A DNA stretch of 26,054 bases from Candidatus Poseidoniales archaeon (lineage in GTDB: Archaea; Thermoplasmatota; Poseidoniia; Poseidoniales; Thalassarchaeaceae). The stretch's first letter is position 1; every line of letters starts with the position of its first letter. The notes beneath the pieces were generated by a model that worked only from the letters and a program-made list of their open reading frames with translations, was not told the DNA's origin and searched no databases. The position numbers were made by a program, and so were the translations under genes. Positions 1 to 4,391 of the stretch are shown piece after piece. The stretch lies in assembly GCA_022447885.1 (NCBI GenBank), contig JAKUTA010000001.1:1-26054 (forward strand), written 5' to 3'.

Positions 1-309
1 ATCGACGTCTGCCTCATCGACAGCAGGCTCATCCTCAGGCGCCTCGACAACCTCCTCGGGCTCAGTCTCTTCCGCAGGTTCCTCCTCGGACTCCTCTTGA
101 TCGCCACCATCGTCCAATGCCTCAGCCGCAGCCGGCACGTCGGGAGTATCGTCCGACCCCTCGCCATCTTCCTCGGCAGCGGGTGCATCGACGCCTGCCT
201 CATCAAGACGGGCGATGAGATCTGCCTTCTTGCCACCGAGATTCAGTCCACGCTCTCGCAGGAGATCCTTGAGCGCGGAGACTGTGAGTTCCTGGTGCTC
301 ATCACTCAT
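1..309 (-). CDS. Partial CDS (3' end outside window): N-terminal SAP/HeH domain plus long acidic linker; by synteny probably an N-terminally extended Spt5/NusG
   Basis: Not in the ORF track. Manual translation from ATG at 309 (GGAGG SD upstream) is open to position 1: MSDEHQELTVSALKDLLRERGLNLGGKKADLIARLDEAGVDAPAAEEDGEGSDD...DEADVD. The first ~36 aa fit the SAP consensus. The Spt5 identity is inferred only from the position after ftsZ-secE; no NGN/KOW domain is visible in the window. Confidence 0.75.
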   Translation of the reverse strand, partial: MSDEHQELTVSALKDLLRERGLNLGGKKADLIARLDEAGVDAPAAEEDGEGSDDTPDVPAAAEALDDGGDQEESEEEPAEETEPEEVVEAPEDEPAVDEADVD

Positions 310-363: not shown

Positions 364-639
364 TCAGGTGACAATCCAAGCGAAGAACTTGGGGAGCACG
401 GTGTCCATCGCCAACAGAATGATGAAGCCGACGAACCCGAGGATGAACATCCCGATTCCGCACACCCAGATGGTCTGGCGGAACTCCATCTTGGTCGGCT
501 TGCGCGCCATTCTCAGAATCCTCGCCCACGAGCCCCTCCCGAGTTTGCGCACACTGGTCTCGATGTTGTCCTGGATGTCCTGCACCCGCTCCTCGAACGA
601 GGCGTCGCCGCCACCGAATCGAGAGTCTCCACTGGCCAC
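364..639 (-). CDS. secE: Protein translocase subunit SecE / Sec61-gamma
   Basis: RILRMARKPTKMEFRQ motif followed by one TM helix (GIGMFILGFVGFIILLAM); directly downstream of ftsZ. The ORF track starts at 660, but GTG 639 fits the TATA spacing better. Confidence 0.93.
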   Translation of the reverse strand: MASGDSRFGGGDASFEERVQDIQDNIETSVRKLGRGSWARILRMARKPTKMEFRQTIWVCGIGMFILGFVGFIILLAMDTVLPKFFAWIVT

Positions 640-675
640 GTCTGAACCCCTAGGGTTCACCCCGACCTAGAGTCC

Positions 676-778: not shown

Positions 779-1897
779 TCAGTTGATGAACTCGAGGTCG
801 CGGGTGCGCATGTTGCGCATCTGCTGGTGCGCGGCCGCCCCGAATATCTGCTCGCTCTTGACTCCCGTCAGCACGAGCAGCACGCGGATGTCGTTGCCGA
901 GCGACTCATCGACCGTGGCACCCCAGATGATGCGGGCATACGGGTTGATCTTGTCGCGGATGTACTGGGCGCAGGACTCCGCTTCACCGAGTGTGAGCGA
1001 CTGCCCACCGACGACGTTCACGAGTGCGCCGCGGGCGTCCGAGACATCGATGTCCAGCAGTGGTGAGGTGAGCGCCTGGTCCGTTGCTTCCAGGGCGCGG
1101 TCGGTACCAGATGCCTCTCCGAGTCCGATCATCGCCATTCCACCGCCGTTCTCCATCACGCTGCGCAGGTCCTCGAAGTCGAGGTTCACCAGCCCATCCT
1201 TGGTGATCATCTCGGAGACACCGGCGATCGAGCGCATCAGCACTTCGTCTGCTACGCGGAAGGCGGACTCGATCGGCAGGTCCCTGACTCCTTCGACCTC
1301 GAGCAGCTTCTCGTTGGGGAGCACCACGACGGTGTCGCAGATCTCGCGCAACCGCTGTAGTCCCCATTCGGCATTCTGTCGACGCAGCGTCCCCTCTGAC
1401 TCGAATGGATAGGTCACCACTGCGATGGTGAGTGCCCCCGCGCTCTTGGCGAGTCGCGCGATCACATGCGCACCGCCTGTACCGGTTCCCCCACCCAGAC
1501 CAGCGGTCACGAACGCAAGGTCGGAGTCGACGATCGCCTTGGTGAGCGTACGCTCGGATTCATACGCGGCCTTCTCCCCCTTCTCGGGGTCGCCACCGGC
1601 ACCGCGCCCGCGGGCGGTTCTTCCGATGAGGATCTTGTGTGTCACCTTCGAGCGCAGCAGGTGCTGAGCATCGGTGTTCACGGCATAACCGAGCACCTGG
1701 TTCTCATCGAGCAGCCCCTCTTCTCCCAGTCTCTGGACTGTGTTGCAACCGCAGCCACCACAGCCGAACACGCGGATGCGCGGCTGCAGACTCTCCAACA
1801 GACGATGCAGTTCGCGGTCGTCCTCATTGGGCTCGGTATCCGTCTCGGCTACCTCACTCTCCTGCAGTTCAAGCACCCGGTCAATCAGATGGCGCAT
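779..1897 (-). CDS. ftsZ: Cell division protein FtsZ (FtsZ1 type), 372 aa
   Basis: GCGGCGCN loop, AVNTDAQHL, tubulin signature GLGGGTGTG, T7 loop GLVNLDFED and archaeal FtsZ1-like C-terminal DLEFI; linked to secE. Confidence 0.98.
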   Translation of the reverse strand: MRHLIDRVLELQESEVAETDTEPNEDDRELHRLLESLQPRIRVFGCGGCGCNTVQRLGEEGLLDENQVLGYAVNTDAQHLLRSKVTHKILIGRTARGRGAGGDPEKGEKAAYESERTLTKAIVDSDLAFVTAGLGGGTGTGGAHVIARLAKSAGALTIAVVTYPFESEGTLRRQNAEWGLQRLREICDTVVVLPNEKLLEVEGVRDLPIESAFRVADEVLMRSIAGVSEMITKDGLVNLDFEDLRSVMENGGGMAMIGLGEASGTDRALEATDQALTSPLLDIDVSDARGALVNVVGGQSLTLGEAESCAQYIRDKINPYARIIWGATVDESLGNDIRVLLVLTGVKSEQIFGAAAHQQMRNMRTRDLEFIN

Positions 1898-2092: not shown

Positions 2093-2099
2093 TTAAATA
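2093..2099 (+). promoter_or_regulatory. Candidate TATA box for the rpl11-rpl1-rpl10-rpl12 operon
   Basis: TTAAATA about 42 nt upstream of ATG 2141; SD GAGGTGA at 2130-2136. Confidence 0.6.
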
Positions 2100-2140
2100 G
2101 AGGGAGCAGGTCGGCGAGAACCCCCTGATGAGGTGACCTG

Positions 2141-2443
2141 ATGTCAGACAACTGGACTTCCCGGCGCATCCGCACGGCGGTCATCGGCAAGGGCATCAAG
2201 TTCAATGGCTCGTGGGAGGGTGAGATCGACATCCCATCCGACCCCAAGGTGCACAACATCACACTCGATCAGGTCATCGAGATCGCCAACGCGAAATCGG
2301 AACTCACGGGCAATGATGTCAAGGCACGTTCACTGGAGGTGATGGGCACCTGCGTGTCCATGCGCTGCCACATCGAGGGTCTGGTGCCCAAGGAGTTCAT
2401 CAGCAAGGTGAAGGAAGGAGAATACGACGGACGATTCAACTGA
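2141..2443 (+). CDS. rpl11: Ribosomal protein L11 (uL11), C-terminal rRNA-binding domain only, 100 aa
   Basis: HNITLDQVIEIANAK...EVMGTCVSM...EGEYD matches the archaeal uL11 C-terminal domain; lies immediately before rpl1. SD GAGGTGA present; in-frame TGA at 2129-2131 excludes a longer N-terminus. Confidence 0.85.
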   Translation: MSDNWTSRRIRTAVIGKGIKFNGSWEGEIDIPSDPKVHNITLDQVIEIANAKSELTGNDVKARSLEVMGTCVSMRCHIEGLVPKEFISKVKEGEYDGRFN

Positions 2444-2493: not shown

Positions 2494-3141
2494 ATGCAGA
2501 CACACATTCGGGAAGCGGTGAAGAAGGCGCTCGATGAGGCTCCTGAACGGAACTTCGTCGAGAGCGTGGAACTCGCGTTCACCATCCGCGACGTCGACCT
2601 GAAGAATCCAGCCAACCGCATCCAGGAGGAGGTGCGCCTCCCACGGGGCCGCGGCAAGACGCTGAGCATCGCCATCTTCGCCGGCGGCGAGATGGCCATC
2701 AAGGCGCGCGAAGCCGGACTCGAGATCATCGACCCGGCGCAAATCGAGGATCTCGGCGGCGACCGCCAGAAAGCGCGCAAACTGGCGCGCAGACACGATT
2801 TCTTCCTCTCTGAGGTTCCGCACATGACCGACATCGGTCGCCACCTCGGTGTGGTGCTCGGACCACGCGGCAAGATGCCAAGGCCAGTGCCGCCGAATGT
2901 GGACCCAGGAAACATCGCGCAGGCGCTGCAGAGCACGACTCTGGTGCGCAGTCGTGACAATATCACATTCCACACGGTCGTGGGCGCGCGCAACCAAGGC
3001 GAGGAGGCGATCAGCGAGAACGCCTACGAGGTGTGGAACAGGGTCACCGGCAAGTTGGAGCGGGGAGCGGGCAACATCCGTTCACTCTACGTCAAAACCT
3101 CGATGGGTCCCTCGATCAGGGTGCAGGTGGACTTCTCATGA
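2494..3141 (+). CDS. rpl1: Ribosomal protein L1 (uL1), 215 aa
   Basis: RNFVESVELAFTIRDVDL, LPRGRGK, LGPRGKMP and YVKTSMGPS motifs. Confidence 0.98.
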   Translation: MQTHIREAVKKALDEAPERNFVESVELAFTIRDVDLKNPANRIQEEVRLPRGRGKTLSIAIFAGGEMAIKAREAGLEIIDPAQIEDLGGDRQKARKLARRHDFFLSEVPHMTDIGRHLGVVLGPRGKMPRPVPPNVDPGNIAQALQSTTLVRSRDNITFHTVVGARNQGEEAISENAYEVWNRVTGKLERGAGNIRSLYVKTSMGPSIRVQVDFS

Positions 3142-4070
3142 TGGCCAAAGCCACGCAGTGGAAGGTCGATCGCGTAGGCGAGTTGACAGAACTACTCAGC
3201 AGCGACGGTATCATCGGCATCGTCGACGTTGCCGGTGTGCCAGCGCAGGCGATGCTCGAGATGCGCAGCACCCTGCGGACCGGCATGACACTCACGATGG
3301 CAAAGAAGTCGCTGTTCAGGCGGGCGTGGAACGAGGCCGGCCTGCCTGAGGAGCAGCTGGAGACGATGTTCGAGACCGCCCAGCAGCCGATGATCGTGCA
3401 TTCCAAGTCGTTGAACATCTCCCAGTTGTTCCAGCAACTCGACCAGACCCGCACCGGCCGTCCCGCCAAGGCGGGCGACATCGCGCCCGAGGACATCGTT
3501 GTCTCGCAGGGGCCGCCCGAATTCGCACCGGGTCCGATCGTCGGCGAGTTGTCAGCGGTGGGCATCCCCGCTAAGATAGAGAAGGGCAAGGTGAACATCA
3601 TCAAGACGGTCACGGCGGTGAAGGCCGGAGAAGTGATCGACGGCGACCTCGGGCTGATGCTCGACAAGCTGGACATCAAGCCGATCGAGATCGGCATCAT
3701 CCTGTGCGGCGTCATCGTCGACGGCGTGGTCATGCCTCCCGACGTGCTCTCGATCGACACGAACGCACTGCTGGCGCAGGCGGTCGCTAACGCGCTCGCA
3801 GTCGCCATCAACGCCGGCATCAGCAACAGCGGCACCATCCCGCTGTTCATCGCCAACGCCAACGCCCACGCGCTGGCCCTCGCAGGTCAATTGGATTCCT
3901 CGGCTCTGGATGATGAGCTGGTAGCCGCCCTCGAGGCGACACCGACCGTCACCGAGGCTGCCCCGACAACCGACGCAGGTGCCGATGAGGCATCCAGCGA
4001 GGAGGCAGCCGAGGAGGAGCCCGAGGAGGAGGAAGCCGAATTCGGTGGACTCGGAGATTTGTTCGGTTGA
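3138..4070 (+). CDS. rpl10: Ribosomal protein L10 / P0 (uL10), about 310 aa
   Basis: WKVDRVGEL...GVPAQAMLEMRSTLR, APEDIVVSQGP, PGPIVGEL, acidic hinge and C-terminal GLGDLFG. ATGA overlap with the rpl1 stop; the ORF-track start at 3033 is too far upstream. Confidence 0.97.
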   Translation: MMAKATQWKVDRVGELTELLSSDGIIGIVDVAGVPAQAMLEMRSTLRTGMTLTMAKKSLFRRAWNEAGLPEEQLETMFETAQQPMIVHSKSLNISQLFQQLDQTRTGRPAKAGDIAPEDIVVSQGPPEFAPGPIVGELSAVGIPAKIEKGKVNIIKTVTAVKAGEVIDGDLGLMLDKLDIKPIEIGIILCGVIVDGVVMPPDVLSIDTNALLAQAVANALAVAINAGISNSGTIPLFIANANAHALALAGQLDSSALDDELVAALEATPTVTEAAPTTDAGADEASSEEAAEEEPEEEEAEFGGLGDLFG

Positions 4071-4088
4071 AACAACAAGGTGAGAGAA

Positions 4089-4391
4089 ATGGAATATGTG
4101 TACGCTGCAATGCTGCTGCACTCGGCAGAGAATGAGATCAACGAGAAGAACGTCAACGCGGTGCTGAAATCCGCGGGCGTGAAGGCTGACGACGCGCGTG
4201 TGAAAGCGCTGTGTGCAAGCCTGGAAGGCGTGGACATCGGTGAAGCGATGACCAGCGCGGTGGCCGCTCCGGCCGCCGCAGCGCCAGCCGCCGCCGGCGG
4301 TTCCGAAGCCGAAGCCCCAGCCGAGGAGGCTGCGGCCGAGGAAGAGGACGATGCGGCGGGCTTCGAAGGTCTCGGATCCCTGTTCGGGTGA
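4089..4391 (+). CDS. rpl12: Ribosomal protein L12 (aP1 / P1-P2), 100 aa
   Basis: [12 protein letters not shown]-terminus, Ala-rich hinge, acidic tail and [10 protein letters not shown]; SD AGGTGA at 4078-4083 supports ATG 4089. Confidence 0.98.

What the first reader, a model, noticed from the sequence alone, without database searches (positions are those of the whole stretch)
2141..2443. Ribosomal protein L11 lacks its entire N-terminal domain
Seen: a 100-aa ORF with its own SD and an in-frame stop four codons upstream. It matches only the uL11 C-terminal rRNA-binding domain, lacks the Pro-rich GPPLGPALGP helix, and has a novel segment (GIKFNGSWEGEIDIPSDP) in the linker region. Established: uL11 is about 140-165 aa, and its N-terminal domain contacts translational GTPases and stalk proteins and forms part of the thiostrepton site. 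Inference: either a ribosome with a remodelled GTPase-associated centre (predicting thiopeptide insensitivity), or a split L11 whose N-half moved with the inverted ftsZ-secE-spt5 block and would lie just left of this window.
Basis: partly seen in the sequence, partly recalled or inferred. Interest (0 to 1): 0.7.

Follow-up and report, generated by a model that had tools for sequence, protein, structure and literature searches.

The report
Half-size ribosomal protein uL11 (MGII archaea)
This Marine Group II archaeon, like every sampled member of its order, encodes only the rRNA-anchoring half of the universal ribosomal protein uL11, so these abundant ocean plankton probably translate without the half that normally touches translation factors and forms the thiopeptide antibiotic pocket.

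Summary
ORF 2141-2443 is a 100-aa uL11 that starts exactly where the C-terminal rRNA-binding domain starts. It has its own Shine-Dalgarno site, a promoter about 45 nt upstream and an in-frame stop four codons upstream.

It is not an artefact and not a split gene. Ribosomal_L11_N was found in no genuine Poseidoniales (MGII) sequence among the three samples searched (30, 126 and 74 genomes, overlapping; two genomes closed). The one hit is a contaminating MGIII contig. The domain is present in 22/24 genomes of sister lineages and 219/226 other Thermoplasmatota. In relatives with the canonical order spt5-L11-L1-P0-P1, only 75 nt separate spt5 from the short gene. In this genome and a congener, a WD40 gene follows spt5.

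The gene is single-copy, under purifying selection (dN/dS about 0.07-0.10) and folds as a uL11 C-domain. The "novel segment" is an 8-residue clade-specific loop insertion, not a linker.

New here: a Poseidoniales-only G in the 23S GTPase centre; a 29-aa deletion in P0 of this genus; and Met-initiated C-domain-only uL11 ORFs in DPANN lineages.

This scan has already reported the same feature on at least six other MGII genomes. I found no paper describing it. Functional consequences are inferred.

The parts
2141..2443 (+). uL11 gene encoding only the C-terminal rRNA-binding domain (100 aa, stop included)
   Evidence: ORF. PF00298 at 33.6 bits, no PF03946. AF2 model pLDDT 81, top Foldseek PDB hits all uL11, e.g. 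5d8h_C at rmsd 1.1 A over 63 columns. dN/dS 0.07-0.10.
2130..2136 (+). Shine-Dalgarno-like GAGGTGA, 4 nt before the ATG
   Evidence: Read directly from the sequence. A purine-rich GGAG/GAGG box is conserved at the same place in about 86 related loci.
2129..2131 (+). In-frame TGA stop four codons upstream of the ATG
   Evidence: Stop-to-stop frames in relatives are only 92-121 aa.
2093..2118 (+). Promoter-like motif TTAAATAGAGGGAGCAGGTCGGCGAG (TATA box plus a conserved downstream block)
   Evidence: Conserved at a fixed distance upstream of the short L11 in about 86 MGII loci. It occurs only 1-2 times per genome, the other copies lying upstream of the uS13 and eL40 genes. Transcription therefore probably starts within about 30 nt of the ATG (inference).
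2216..2239 (+). Clade-specific 8-residue insertion (EGEIDIPS) in the loop after C-domain helix 1
   Evidence: Alignment of MGII and MGIII uL11. The region has lower-confidence loop structure in the AF2 model, pLDDT about 66.
2494..3141 (+). uL1 gene
   Evidence: PF00687, E 9e-43.
3138..4070 (+). uL10/P0 gene (310 aa), lacking 29 aa after residue 209 (junction nt 3764/3765)
   Evidence: PF00466 and PF17777. The deletion is shared by 5/5 species of the genus and by L053. AF2 predicts two long spine helices, 208-226 and 234-251.
4080..4391 (+). Stalk protein P1 (aP1) gene
   Evidence: PF00428, E 1.6e-14.
779..1897 (-). ftsZ, divergently oriented to uL11 (genus-specific inversion)
   Evidence: PF00091 and PF12327. 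Orientation compared in 18 loci.
364..660 (-). secE-like gene
   Evidence: PF00584, E 6e-4, 20.2 bits, below the 22.7-bit cut-off. The position matches secE in relatives.

Best explanation
The ORF is the genuine and only uL11 gene of a Marine Group II archaeon (Ca. Poseidoniales, family Thalassarchaeaceae).

In the common ancestor of the order, the first ~65 codons were deleted. These encode the N-terminal domain with its Pro-rich helix, plus the linker. What remains is a 91-101-aa protein consisting of the C-terminal domain. That domain is the part which, in all characterised ribosomes, anchors uL11 to helices 43/44 of 23S rRNA.

Shown here:
- The domain is not found in genuine sequence of any genome searched in the order, and is present in the sister lineages.
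- There is no displaced N-half.
- The gene is single-copy and sits in the conserved position next to L1-P0-P1.
- It has its own promoter and Shine-Dalgarno site.
- It is under purifying selection.
- It is predicted to adopt the uL11 C-domain fold.

Inferred, not shown:
- The protein sits on H43/H44 as usual.
- The GTPase-associated centre of these ribosomes works with rRNA, P0 and P1 but without the uL11 N-domain.
- The thiopeptide pocket, which needs the Pro-rich helix, is incomplete.

In this genus the stalk base is further derived. It has an 8-residue loop insertion in uL11 and a P0 that lacks what is probably the first of three P1-dimer-binding helices.
For: - **Taxon.** The closest loci are titled Ca. 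Poseidoniales, Thalassarchaeaceae or MGII.
- **PF03946 distribution.** In 30 relatives (3 families, 18 genera) the only hit over cut-off is G004:C36, a 2.2-kb contig whose 156-aa L11 is almost identical to an MGIII one, so it is contamination. In the class-level sample, MGII scores 0/49 and 0/77, against 20/22 and 2/2 in sister families. In the phylum-level sample, MGII scores 0/24 and 0/50, against 219/226 elsewhere. All 14 control genomes are positive.
- **Short homologue.** Found in 30/31 genomes in frames of 92-121 aa. 100 MGII loci give 91-107 aa and 13 MGIII-type loci give 156 aa.
- **Deletion boundary.** The alignment places it exactly at the start of C-domain helix 1.
- **No hidden N-domain.** An MGIII N-domain profile finds nothing in 5 good MGII genomes, two of them closed. 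The only E~0.1 hit lies inside L1, at its LGxxLGPRG motif.
- **Synteny.** Canonical order with a 75-nt gap in L051. A WD40 gene follows spt5 in this genome and in L044.
- **Selection.** dN/dS is 0.07-0.10 in three clades.
- **Fold.** AF2 pLDDT 81. Foldseek hits are uL11 only. PDB phmmer aligns residues 23-99 to H. marismortui L11 79-156.
- **Promoter.** A promoter motif shared with other r-protein operons lies about 45 nt upstream.
- **rRNA site.** A1067 and A1095 equivalents are conserved in all 30 MGII 23S sequences seen.
Against: - There is no direct evidence of the protein on the ribosome. The RNA evidence is weak: only small contigs from metatranscriptome-labelled runs, which may be DNA.
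- A non-homologous protein, or an extension of another stalk component, could occupy the vacated site. I saw no MGII-wide insertion in P0, but I could not search for an unknown partner.
- This genome is only 70.6% complete, so absence here rests on relatives.
- The rRNA and aEF2 changes that are specific to the order arose on the same single branch as the deletion. They cannot be shown to be compensatory.
Confidence: 0.85

Rival explanations
1. Replacement in trans. The N-domain's place at the stalk base is taken by a non-homologous MGII-specific protein, or by a changed surface of P0, aEF2 or rRNA. The centre would then be remodelled rather than simply reduced.
For: - Order-specific changes exist nearby. 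G at the E. coli-1083 equivalent of 23S occurs in 30/30 MGII genomes and 0/107 other Thermoplasmatota.
- aEF2 carries order-specific substitutions, including the domain V motif AETFGFSNxIRAAS against AEMFGFAxxIRSAT, and a 2-residue insertion.
Against: - No MGII-wide insertion or extension appears in P0.
- All these changes map to one branch, so co-occurrence is not evidence of compensation.
- The 1083 position also varies (U, C, A) in lineages with full-length uL11.
- No candidate partner protein was identified.
Confidence: 0.1
2. Split gene. The N-domain is encoded separately elsewhere, for example downstream of spt5 after the inversion, and assembles with the C-domain protein.
For: The ftsZ-secE block is inverted next to the gene in this genus, and the window ends before spt5.
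Against: - PF03946 and an MGIII N-domain profile find nothing in MGII, including two closed genomes.
- Uninverted relatives have spt5 immediately followed by the short gene.
- A WD40 gene lies downstream of spt5 in this genome and in a congener.
Confidence: 0.03
3. Artefact or decay. The short ORF results from mis-assembly, a frameshift, a wrong start call, or a dying pseudogene.
For: The genome is a fragmented MAG (330 contigs, 70.6% complete).
Against: - The same short gene occurs in about 100 independently assembled loci, including closed genomes.
- An in-frame stop and a promoter lie upstream.
- dN/dS is about 0.1.
- The fold prediction is confident.
Confidence: 0.01

Closest known systems
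Canonical archaeal uL11 (L11P; Pfam PF03946 + PF00298; NCBIfam NF002232), e.g. H. marismortui 1S72 chain I, M. jannaschii 5COL/5D8H, P. furiosus 4V6U
   Same: The C-terminal domain is the same in sequence and predicted fold. The gene sits next to L1-P0-P1, and in relatives directly after spt5. It is single-copy.
   Different: The whole N-terminal domain and linker (about 65 aa) are missing. The score is far below the equivalog cut-off (54.9 against 162 bits). There are lineage-specific loop changes (GSGEA to CNGSW or FNGSW) and, in this clade, an 8-residue insertion.
Laboratory uL11 loss or N-domain mutants: thiostrepton-resistant bacteria lacking L11 or mutated in the Pro-rich helix, and yeast lacking both RPL12 genes
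   Same: They show that ribosomes can work without uL11 or with an altered N-domain. They also show that the N-domain's Pro-rich helix is part of the thiopeptide site (PMC2175356 and the references listed there).
   Different: Those are mutants with growth defects. The case here is a natural state, fixed across an order and kept under purifying selection in abundant free-living plankton.
Met-initiated C-domain-only or C-domain-first uL11 ORFs in other uncultured archaea (Micrarchaeota MEW6528931.1, Aenigmarchaeota MCK5039990.1, Ca. Tiddalikarchaeum VVB74334.1, Aigarchaeota MCS7142346.1, a marine Woesearchaeota/DHVE6-like lineage)
   Same: The ORFs begin at the C-domain start. On marine contig L159 the 89-aa gene overlaps the spt5 stop, which leaves no room for an N-domain.
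   Different: They are different lineages with canonical loop motifs, so the events are probably independent. Some carry long Lys/Glu/Ala/Pro-rich C-terminal tails. I could not search their genomes for a separate N-domain.

Membership tests
uL11 (ribosomal protein L11 family) | C-terminal rRNA-binding domain (Pfam PF00298) above the gathering score | tested here: met
   33.6 bits against a cut-off of 21.4. It is the only such locus in the assembly.
uL11 (ribosomal protein L11 family) | N-terminal domain (Pfam PF03946) with the Pro-rich helix | tested here: not met
   No match in the ORF, the window or the genome. Not found in genuine MGII sequence in any sample searched.
uL11 (ribosomal protein L11 family) | Full-length equivalog score (NCBIfam NF002232, cut-off 162 bits) | tested here: not met
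   54.9 bits, covering only model positions 90-158 of 164.
uL11 (ribosomal protein L11 family) | Three-dimensional fold of the uL11 C-domain | tested here: met
   AF2 pLDDT 81, pTM 0.76. Foldseek PDB top hits are all uL11, with 5d8h_C at rmsd 1.1 A and 41% identity.
uL11 (ribosomal protein L11 family) | Conserved genomic context (spt5-L11-L1-P0-P1) | tested here: met
   L1, P0 and P1 lie directly downstream. spt5 lies directly upstream in uninverted relatives.
uL11 (ribosomal protein L11 family) | Binding to 23S rRNA H43/H44 and presence in the 50S subunit | not testable with these tools
   This can only be inferred from the fold and from the conserved H43/H44 sequence.
Split ribosomal protein gene (two ORFs encoding the two domains) | A second ORF encoding the missing domain somewhere in the genome | tested here: not met
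   Pfam and a sister-order profile both give negative results, including on two closed genomes. A WD40 gene lies downstream of spt5.

The most novel reading that the evidence does not exclude
The uL11 N-domain, treated as a universal part of the ribosome's factor-binding site, is dispensable in nature and has been lost more than once. It was lost order-wide in Marine Group II archaea and probably independently in several DPANN lineages. MGII ribosomes would run elongation with a GTPase-associated centre made only of rRNA, the uL11 C-domain, P0 and P1, with no replacement protein. They would be intrinsically insensitive to thiopeptides. In this genus the stalk would be reduced further, to two P1 dimers, through loss of one P0 spine helix.
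Probability: 0.45. Interest if true: 0.8.

Novelty: new variant of a known kind. Interest (0 to 1): 0.7.

Why it matters
uL11 is one of the universally conserved ribosomal proteins. Its N-domain is described as a contact for translational GTPases and stalk proteins, and as half of the thiostrepton/micrococcin pocket. Marine Group II archaea are among the most abundant archaea in the surface ocean.

A natural, order-wide ribosome without this domain would be a ready-made experiment on several questions:
- What the domain is actually needed for in archaeal translation.
- How the GTPase-associated centre can be simplified.
- Whether loss of the pocket gives intrinsic thiopeptide resistance.

There is also a practical consequence. 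L11-based marker models and annotation pipelines will under-score or mis-name this gene. The NCBIfam score is a third of the cut-off, and some database copies are called 'hypothetical protein'.

Tried and rejected
- **L1-binding leader idea.** I asked whether the conserved sequence upstream of the gene is an L1 autoregulatory RNA. This is rejected. Rfam finds nothing in 1850-2650. The motif recurs upstream of the uS13 and eL40 genes, within 5-10 nt of the eL40 ATG, so it is an r-protein promoter or initiator motif.
- **Weak N-domain-like hit in closed MGII genomes (E~0.1).** It lies inside L1 at its LGxxLGPRG motif, so it is chance similarity.
- **Full-length L11 in G004.** It sits on a 2.2-kb contig and is nearly identical to an MGIII sequence, while the same MAG also has the short gene. 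It is contamination.
- **G at the 1061 equivalent of 23S.** It is shared with many lineages that have full-length L11, so it is not specific.
- **Expression.** One search for runs and one laying of reads gave only 4 runs with small Logan contigs. X4 (RNA-Seq) covers 2389-2534. X1 covers 2044-2235, but from a 'WGA' library that may be DNA. This is no usable evidence on transcript start or level.
- **P0 as a carrier of a compensating insertion.** None is shared across MGII.
- **Tool limits.** The metagenome loci L159 and L160 could not be used as genome handles. The DPANN forms therefore could not be checked for a separate N-domain.
- **Literature.** Six full-text searches and one preprint read found no description of a domain-level uL11 truncation in MGII or DPANN. 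The library does not cover most subscription journals.

Full report
**What is in the sequence**

The + strand ORF 2141-2443 encodes 100 aa. GAGGTGA lies at 2130-2136 and an in-frame TGA lies at 2129-2131, four codons before the ATG.

Pfam assigns only the L11 RNA-binding C-domain: PF00298, 33.6 bits against a cut-off of 21.4. The NCBIfam archaeal L11 equivalog matches only its positions 90-158 of 164, at 54.9 bits against a cut-off of 162.

The neighbours on the + strand are uL1 (2494-3141), uL10/P0 (3138-4070) and P1 (4080-4391). On the - strand are ftsZ (779-1897) and a secE-like gene (364-660).

The window is the whole of contig C1 of a 1.63-Mb MAG with 330 contigs, 70.6% complete. A six-frame search of that assembly finds one PF00298 locus, which is this one, and no PF03946.

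**Who it is**

Close relatives of the ORF in the species-genome collection carry titles such as Ca. Poseidoniales, Ca. Thalassarchaeaceae, Ca. Thalassarchaeum and Marine Group II. The window has 64% G+C.

**The truncation is a trait of the whole order**

| Sample | MGII (Poseidoniales) with PF03946 | Other lineages with PF03946 |
|---|---|---|
| 30 relatives (3 families, 18 genera, one closed genome) | 1 hit over cut-off (G004:C36) | n/a |
| Phylum level, genomes at least 85% complete | 0/24 and 0/50 | 219/226 (43 other Thermoplasmatota families) |

These samples overlap.

- The single hit in the first sample, G004:C36, is a 2.2-kb contig. Its 156-aa L11 is almost identical to an MGIII sequence, and the same 60%-complete MAG also carries the short gene. 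It is therefore contamination.
- The short protein is found in 30 of 31 genomes, in stop-to-stop frames of 92-121 aa.
- In the phylum-level sample, the few misses outside MGII are scattered across families, as expected from incompleteness.
- All 14 control genomes are positive in every search.
- From about 100 MGII loci I extracted short genes of 91-107 aa. From 13 MGIII-type loci I extracted genes of 156 aa.

**Where the cut lies**

I aligned MGII forms with MGIII full-length uL11. The MGII proteins start exactly where C-domain helix 1 starts. For example, Poseidoniaceae MPKPWTSELIKKALG aligns with MGIII ...VGTPPAASLVKQVLG. About 65 residues are therefore missing, namely the N-domain plus the linker.

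All MGII forms have CNGSW or FNGSW where MGIII has GSGEA. This genus and a neighbouring clade of 101-aa forms carry an extra 8-residue insertion (EGEIDIPS, residues 26-33) plus two residues.

**It is not a split gene**

- A profile of MGIII N-domains (alignment A1) was searched against five good MGII genomes, two of them closed. It gives only E~0.1 hits, and these fall inside L1 at its LGxxLGPRG motif.
- The inversion of the ftsZ-secE block relative to uL11 is confined to this genus, in the window and all four other species. Other Thalassarchaeaceae keep ftsZ-secE-spt5-L11-L1-P0-P1 on one strand.
- In one such relative (L051), spt5 ends 75 nt before the short L11 ATG.
- In a same-genus relative (L044), the gene after secE is Spt5 and the next gene is a WD40-repeat protein.
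- In the window's own assembly, the Spt5 C-terminus lies at the end of contig C73 and is followed by the same WD40-type gene.

**It is a live gene**

- Pairwise dN/dS (NG86) is 0.10 within the genus, 0.07 in the 101-aa clade and 0.07 among 92-aa forms.
- An AlphaFold2 model built on 55 sequences has mean pLDDT 81 and pTM 0.76.
- Its Foldseek hits in the PDB are uL11 chains only, aligned over the C-domain. Examples are M. jannaschii 5d8h_C (rmsd 1.1 A over 63 columns, 41% identity) and H. marismortui 4v9f_I.
- phmmer against PDB sequences aligns residues 23-99 to H. marismortui L11 79-156. All solved uL11 sequences matched are 133-196 aa.
- About 45 nt upstream of the ATG lies TTAAATA-N2-GRRAG-N-ARGTCGGCG. 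This is conserved in about 86 MGII loci.
- The pattern occurs only once or twice per genome. Its other copies precede the uS13 and eL40 genes, and in eL40 loci the ATG follows within 5-10 nt. It is therefore a ribosomal-protein promoter or initiator motif. It implies that the uL11 mRNA starts too close to the ATG to encode anything more. That last step is inference.

**Surroundings of the missing domain**

*23S rRNA.* I read the H43/H44 core from 137 Thermoplasmatota genomes with a pattern search.
- The A1067 and A1095 equivalents are kept everywhere. The numbering is my own alignment to the E. coli 1051-1108 sequence, from memory.
- All 30 MGII sequences have G in CCUU**G**AAAG, the 1083 equivalent.
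- None of 107 other genomes has G there (they have U, C or A), nor does the sister family f5.
- Because that position varies elsewhere, and the change shares a single branch with the deletion, I treat it as a lineage marker and only a candidate for co-adaptation.

*aEF2.* Three MGII sequences were compared with six outgroups (five usable after dropping a wrong-strand frame). They show order-specific substitutions, including AETFGFSNxIRAAS against AEMFGFAxxIRSAT in domain V, and a 2-residue insertion. The same caveat applies.

*P0.* There is no MGII-wide insertion that could stand in for the N-domain.

**How it most likely works**

Established knowledge:
- The C-domain alone anchors uL11 to H43/H44.
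- The N-domain is mobile, contacts translational GTPases, and together with the two rRNA loops forms the thiostrepton cleft (summarised in PMC2175356; also the PMC3505967 abstract).
- Yeast without uL11 is viable but very slow (PMC2175356 abstract).

From this I infer three things. The MGII protein stabilises the H43/H44 fold. Factor recruitment relies on P0/P1 and rRNA. The thiopeptide pocket is incomplete. None of these was tested here.

**Beyond MGII**

I searched 1.84 billion representative proteins with a profile of the short forms. Besides canonical 156-165-aa uL11, where the match starts near residue 68, the search returned Met-initiated ORFs that begin at the C-domain. Source names place some of them as follows:

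| Length | Source | Accession |
|---|---|---|
| 93 aa | Micrarchaeota | MEW6528931.1 |
| 138 aa | Aenigmarchaeota | MCK5039990.1 |
| 194 aa, with an Ala/Pro/Lys-rich tail | Ca. Tiddalikarchaeum | VVB74334.1 |
| 100 aa, on a 733-kb contig | Aigarchaeota | MCS7142346.1 |
| 89 aa, seen on 141 contigs | Tara Oceans marine samples | n/a |

On one marine contig (L159) the order is ftsZ-secE-spt5-L11(89 aa), and the L11 ATG overlaps the spt5 stop. Its FtsZ is closest to proteins named Woesearchaeota, DHVE6 and Nanoarchaeia.

C-domain-only uL11 genes therefore probably arose more than once.

**Earlier work**

This scan has already reported the same order-wide feature on at least six other MGII genomes. 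My independent tests agree with those reports. One unfollowed first-reader note concerns a 90-aa form related to the marine DPANN type.

Six full-text searches and one preprint on non-essential ribosomal proteins gave no description of this truncation.

**Verdict**

The split-gene reading is refuted, and the reduced GTPase-associated centre is supported genomically. It is a new variant of a known kind. It would be surprising to ribosome specialists, and it is testable.

Noticed in passing
window 3138-4070 (junction at nt 3764/3765): uL10/P0 of this genus (window plus L044-L047, 5/5) and of the L053 lineage is 305-310 aa. It lacks 29 residues that other MGII and outgroup P0 have, aligned to P. 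furiosus P0 at about 210-238. AF2 predicts only two long C-terminal spine helices (208-226, 234-251). From my knowledge of the P. horikoshii P0(P1)6 complex, canonical archaeal P0 has three, each binding a P1 dimer. This stalk may therefore carry two dimers.
   Followed up: partly
window 2093-2118; also G069:C1:53531, G020:C1:1569860, G002:C20:16409: The conserved motif TTAAATA-N2-GRRAG-N-ARGTCGGCG occurs 1-2 times per MGII genome, upstream of the uL11, uS13 and eL40 genes. It is a candidate ribosomal-protein-operon promoter or initiator element of the order.
   Followed up: partly
L127 (G069 23S, around 2646), L128 (G020 23S); 30 MGII genomes: The 23S rRNA GTPase-associated centre has G at the E. 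coli-1083 equivalent (CCUUGAAAG) in 30/30 MGII genomes. None of 107 other Thermoplasmatota has G there. The A1067 and A1095 equivalents are unchanged.
   Followed up: partly
L139-L141 (aEF2 of G002, G020, G069): aEF2 carries MGII-specific substitutions (e.g. domain V AETFGFSNxIRAAS, TKIWMDPHAGE, RSAAAGVT) and a 2-residue insertion, relative to outgroups from six families (five usable). G069 also has a 19-residue insertion in the G domain.
   Followed up: no
window 1-309 (- strand); L044 3289-4392; L051 4976-5926; L161: The ORF at the window's left end starts with a SAP domain (E 1e-11) followed by an acidic linker, and is cut by the contig end. It is not homologous to the N-terminus of Spt5 at the same position in a congener. 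MGII Spt5 proteins carry an N-terminal extension of about 150-200 aa with no Pfam match.
   Followed up: partly
L147, L148, L149, L152: In MGIII-like genomes (G031, G038), family f5 (G047) and f43 (G270), the full-length L11 gene is not followed by L1-P0-P1. Those genes lie elsewhere. MGII keeps the cluster.
   Followed up: no
L159 5001-5270 (metagenome contig Ga0181575_10003189); proteins P0059, P0064, P0074, P0141, P0169: Met-initiated C-domain-only or C-domain-first uL11 ORFs occur in DPANN-type lineages (Woesearchaeota/DHVE6-like, Micrarchaeota, Aenigmarchaeota, Tiddalikarchaeum) and in an Aigarchaeota MAG. Some carry long charged C-terminal tails.
   Followed up: partly
G004:C36 (L003): A 2.2-kb contig in a 60%-complete same-genus MAG carries an MGIII-type full-length L11. 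This is evidence of cross-lineage contamination in that bin.
   Followed up: yes
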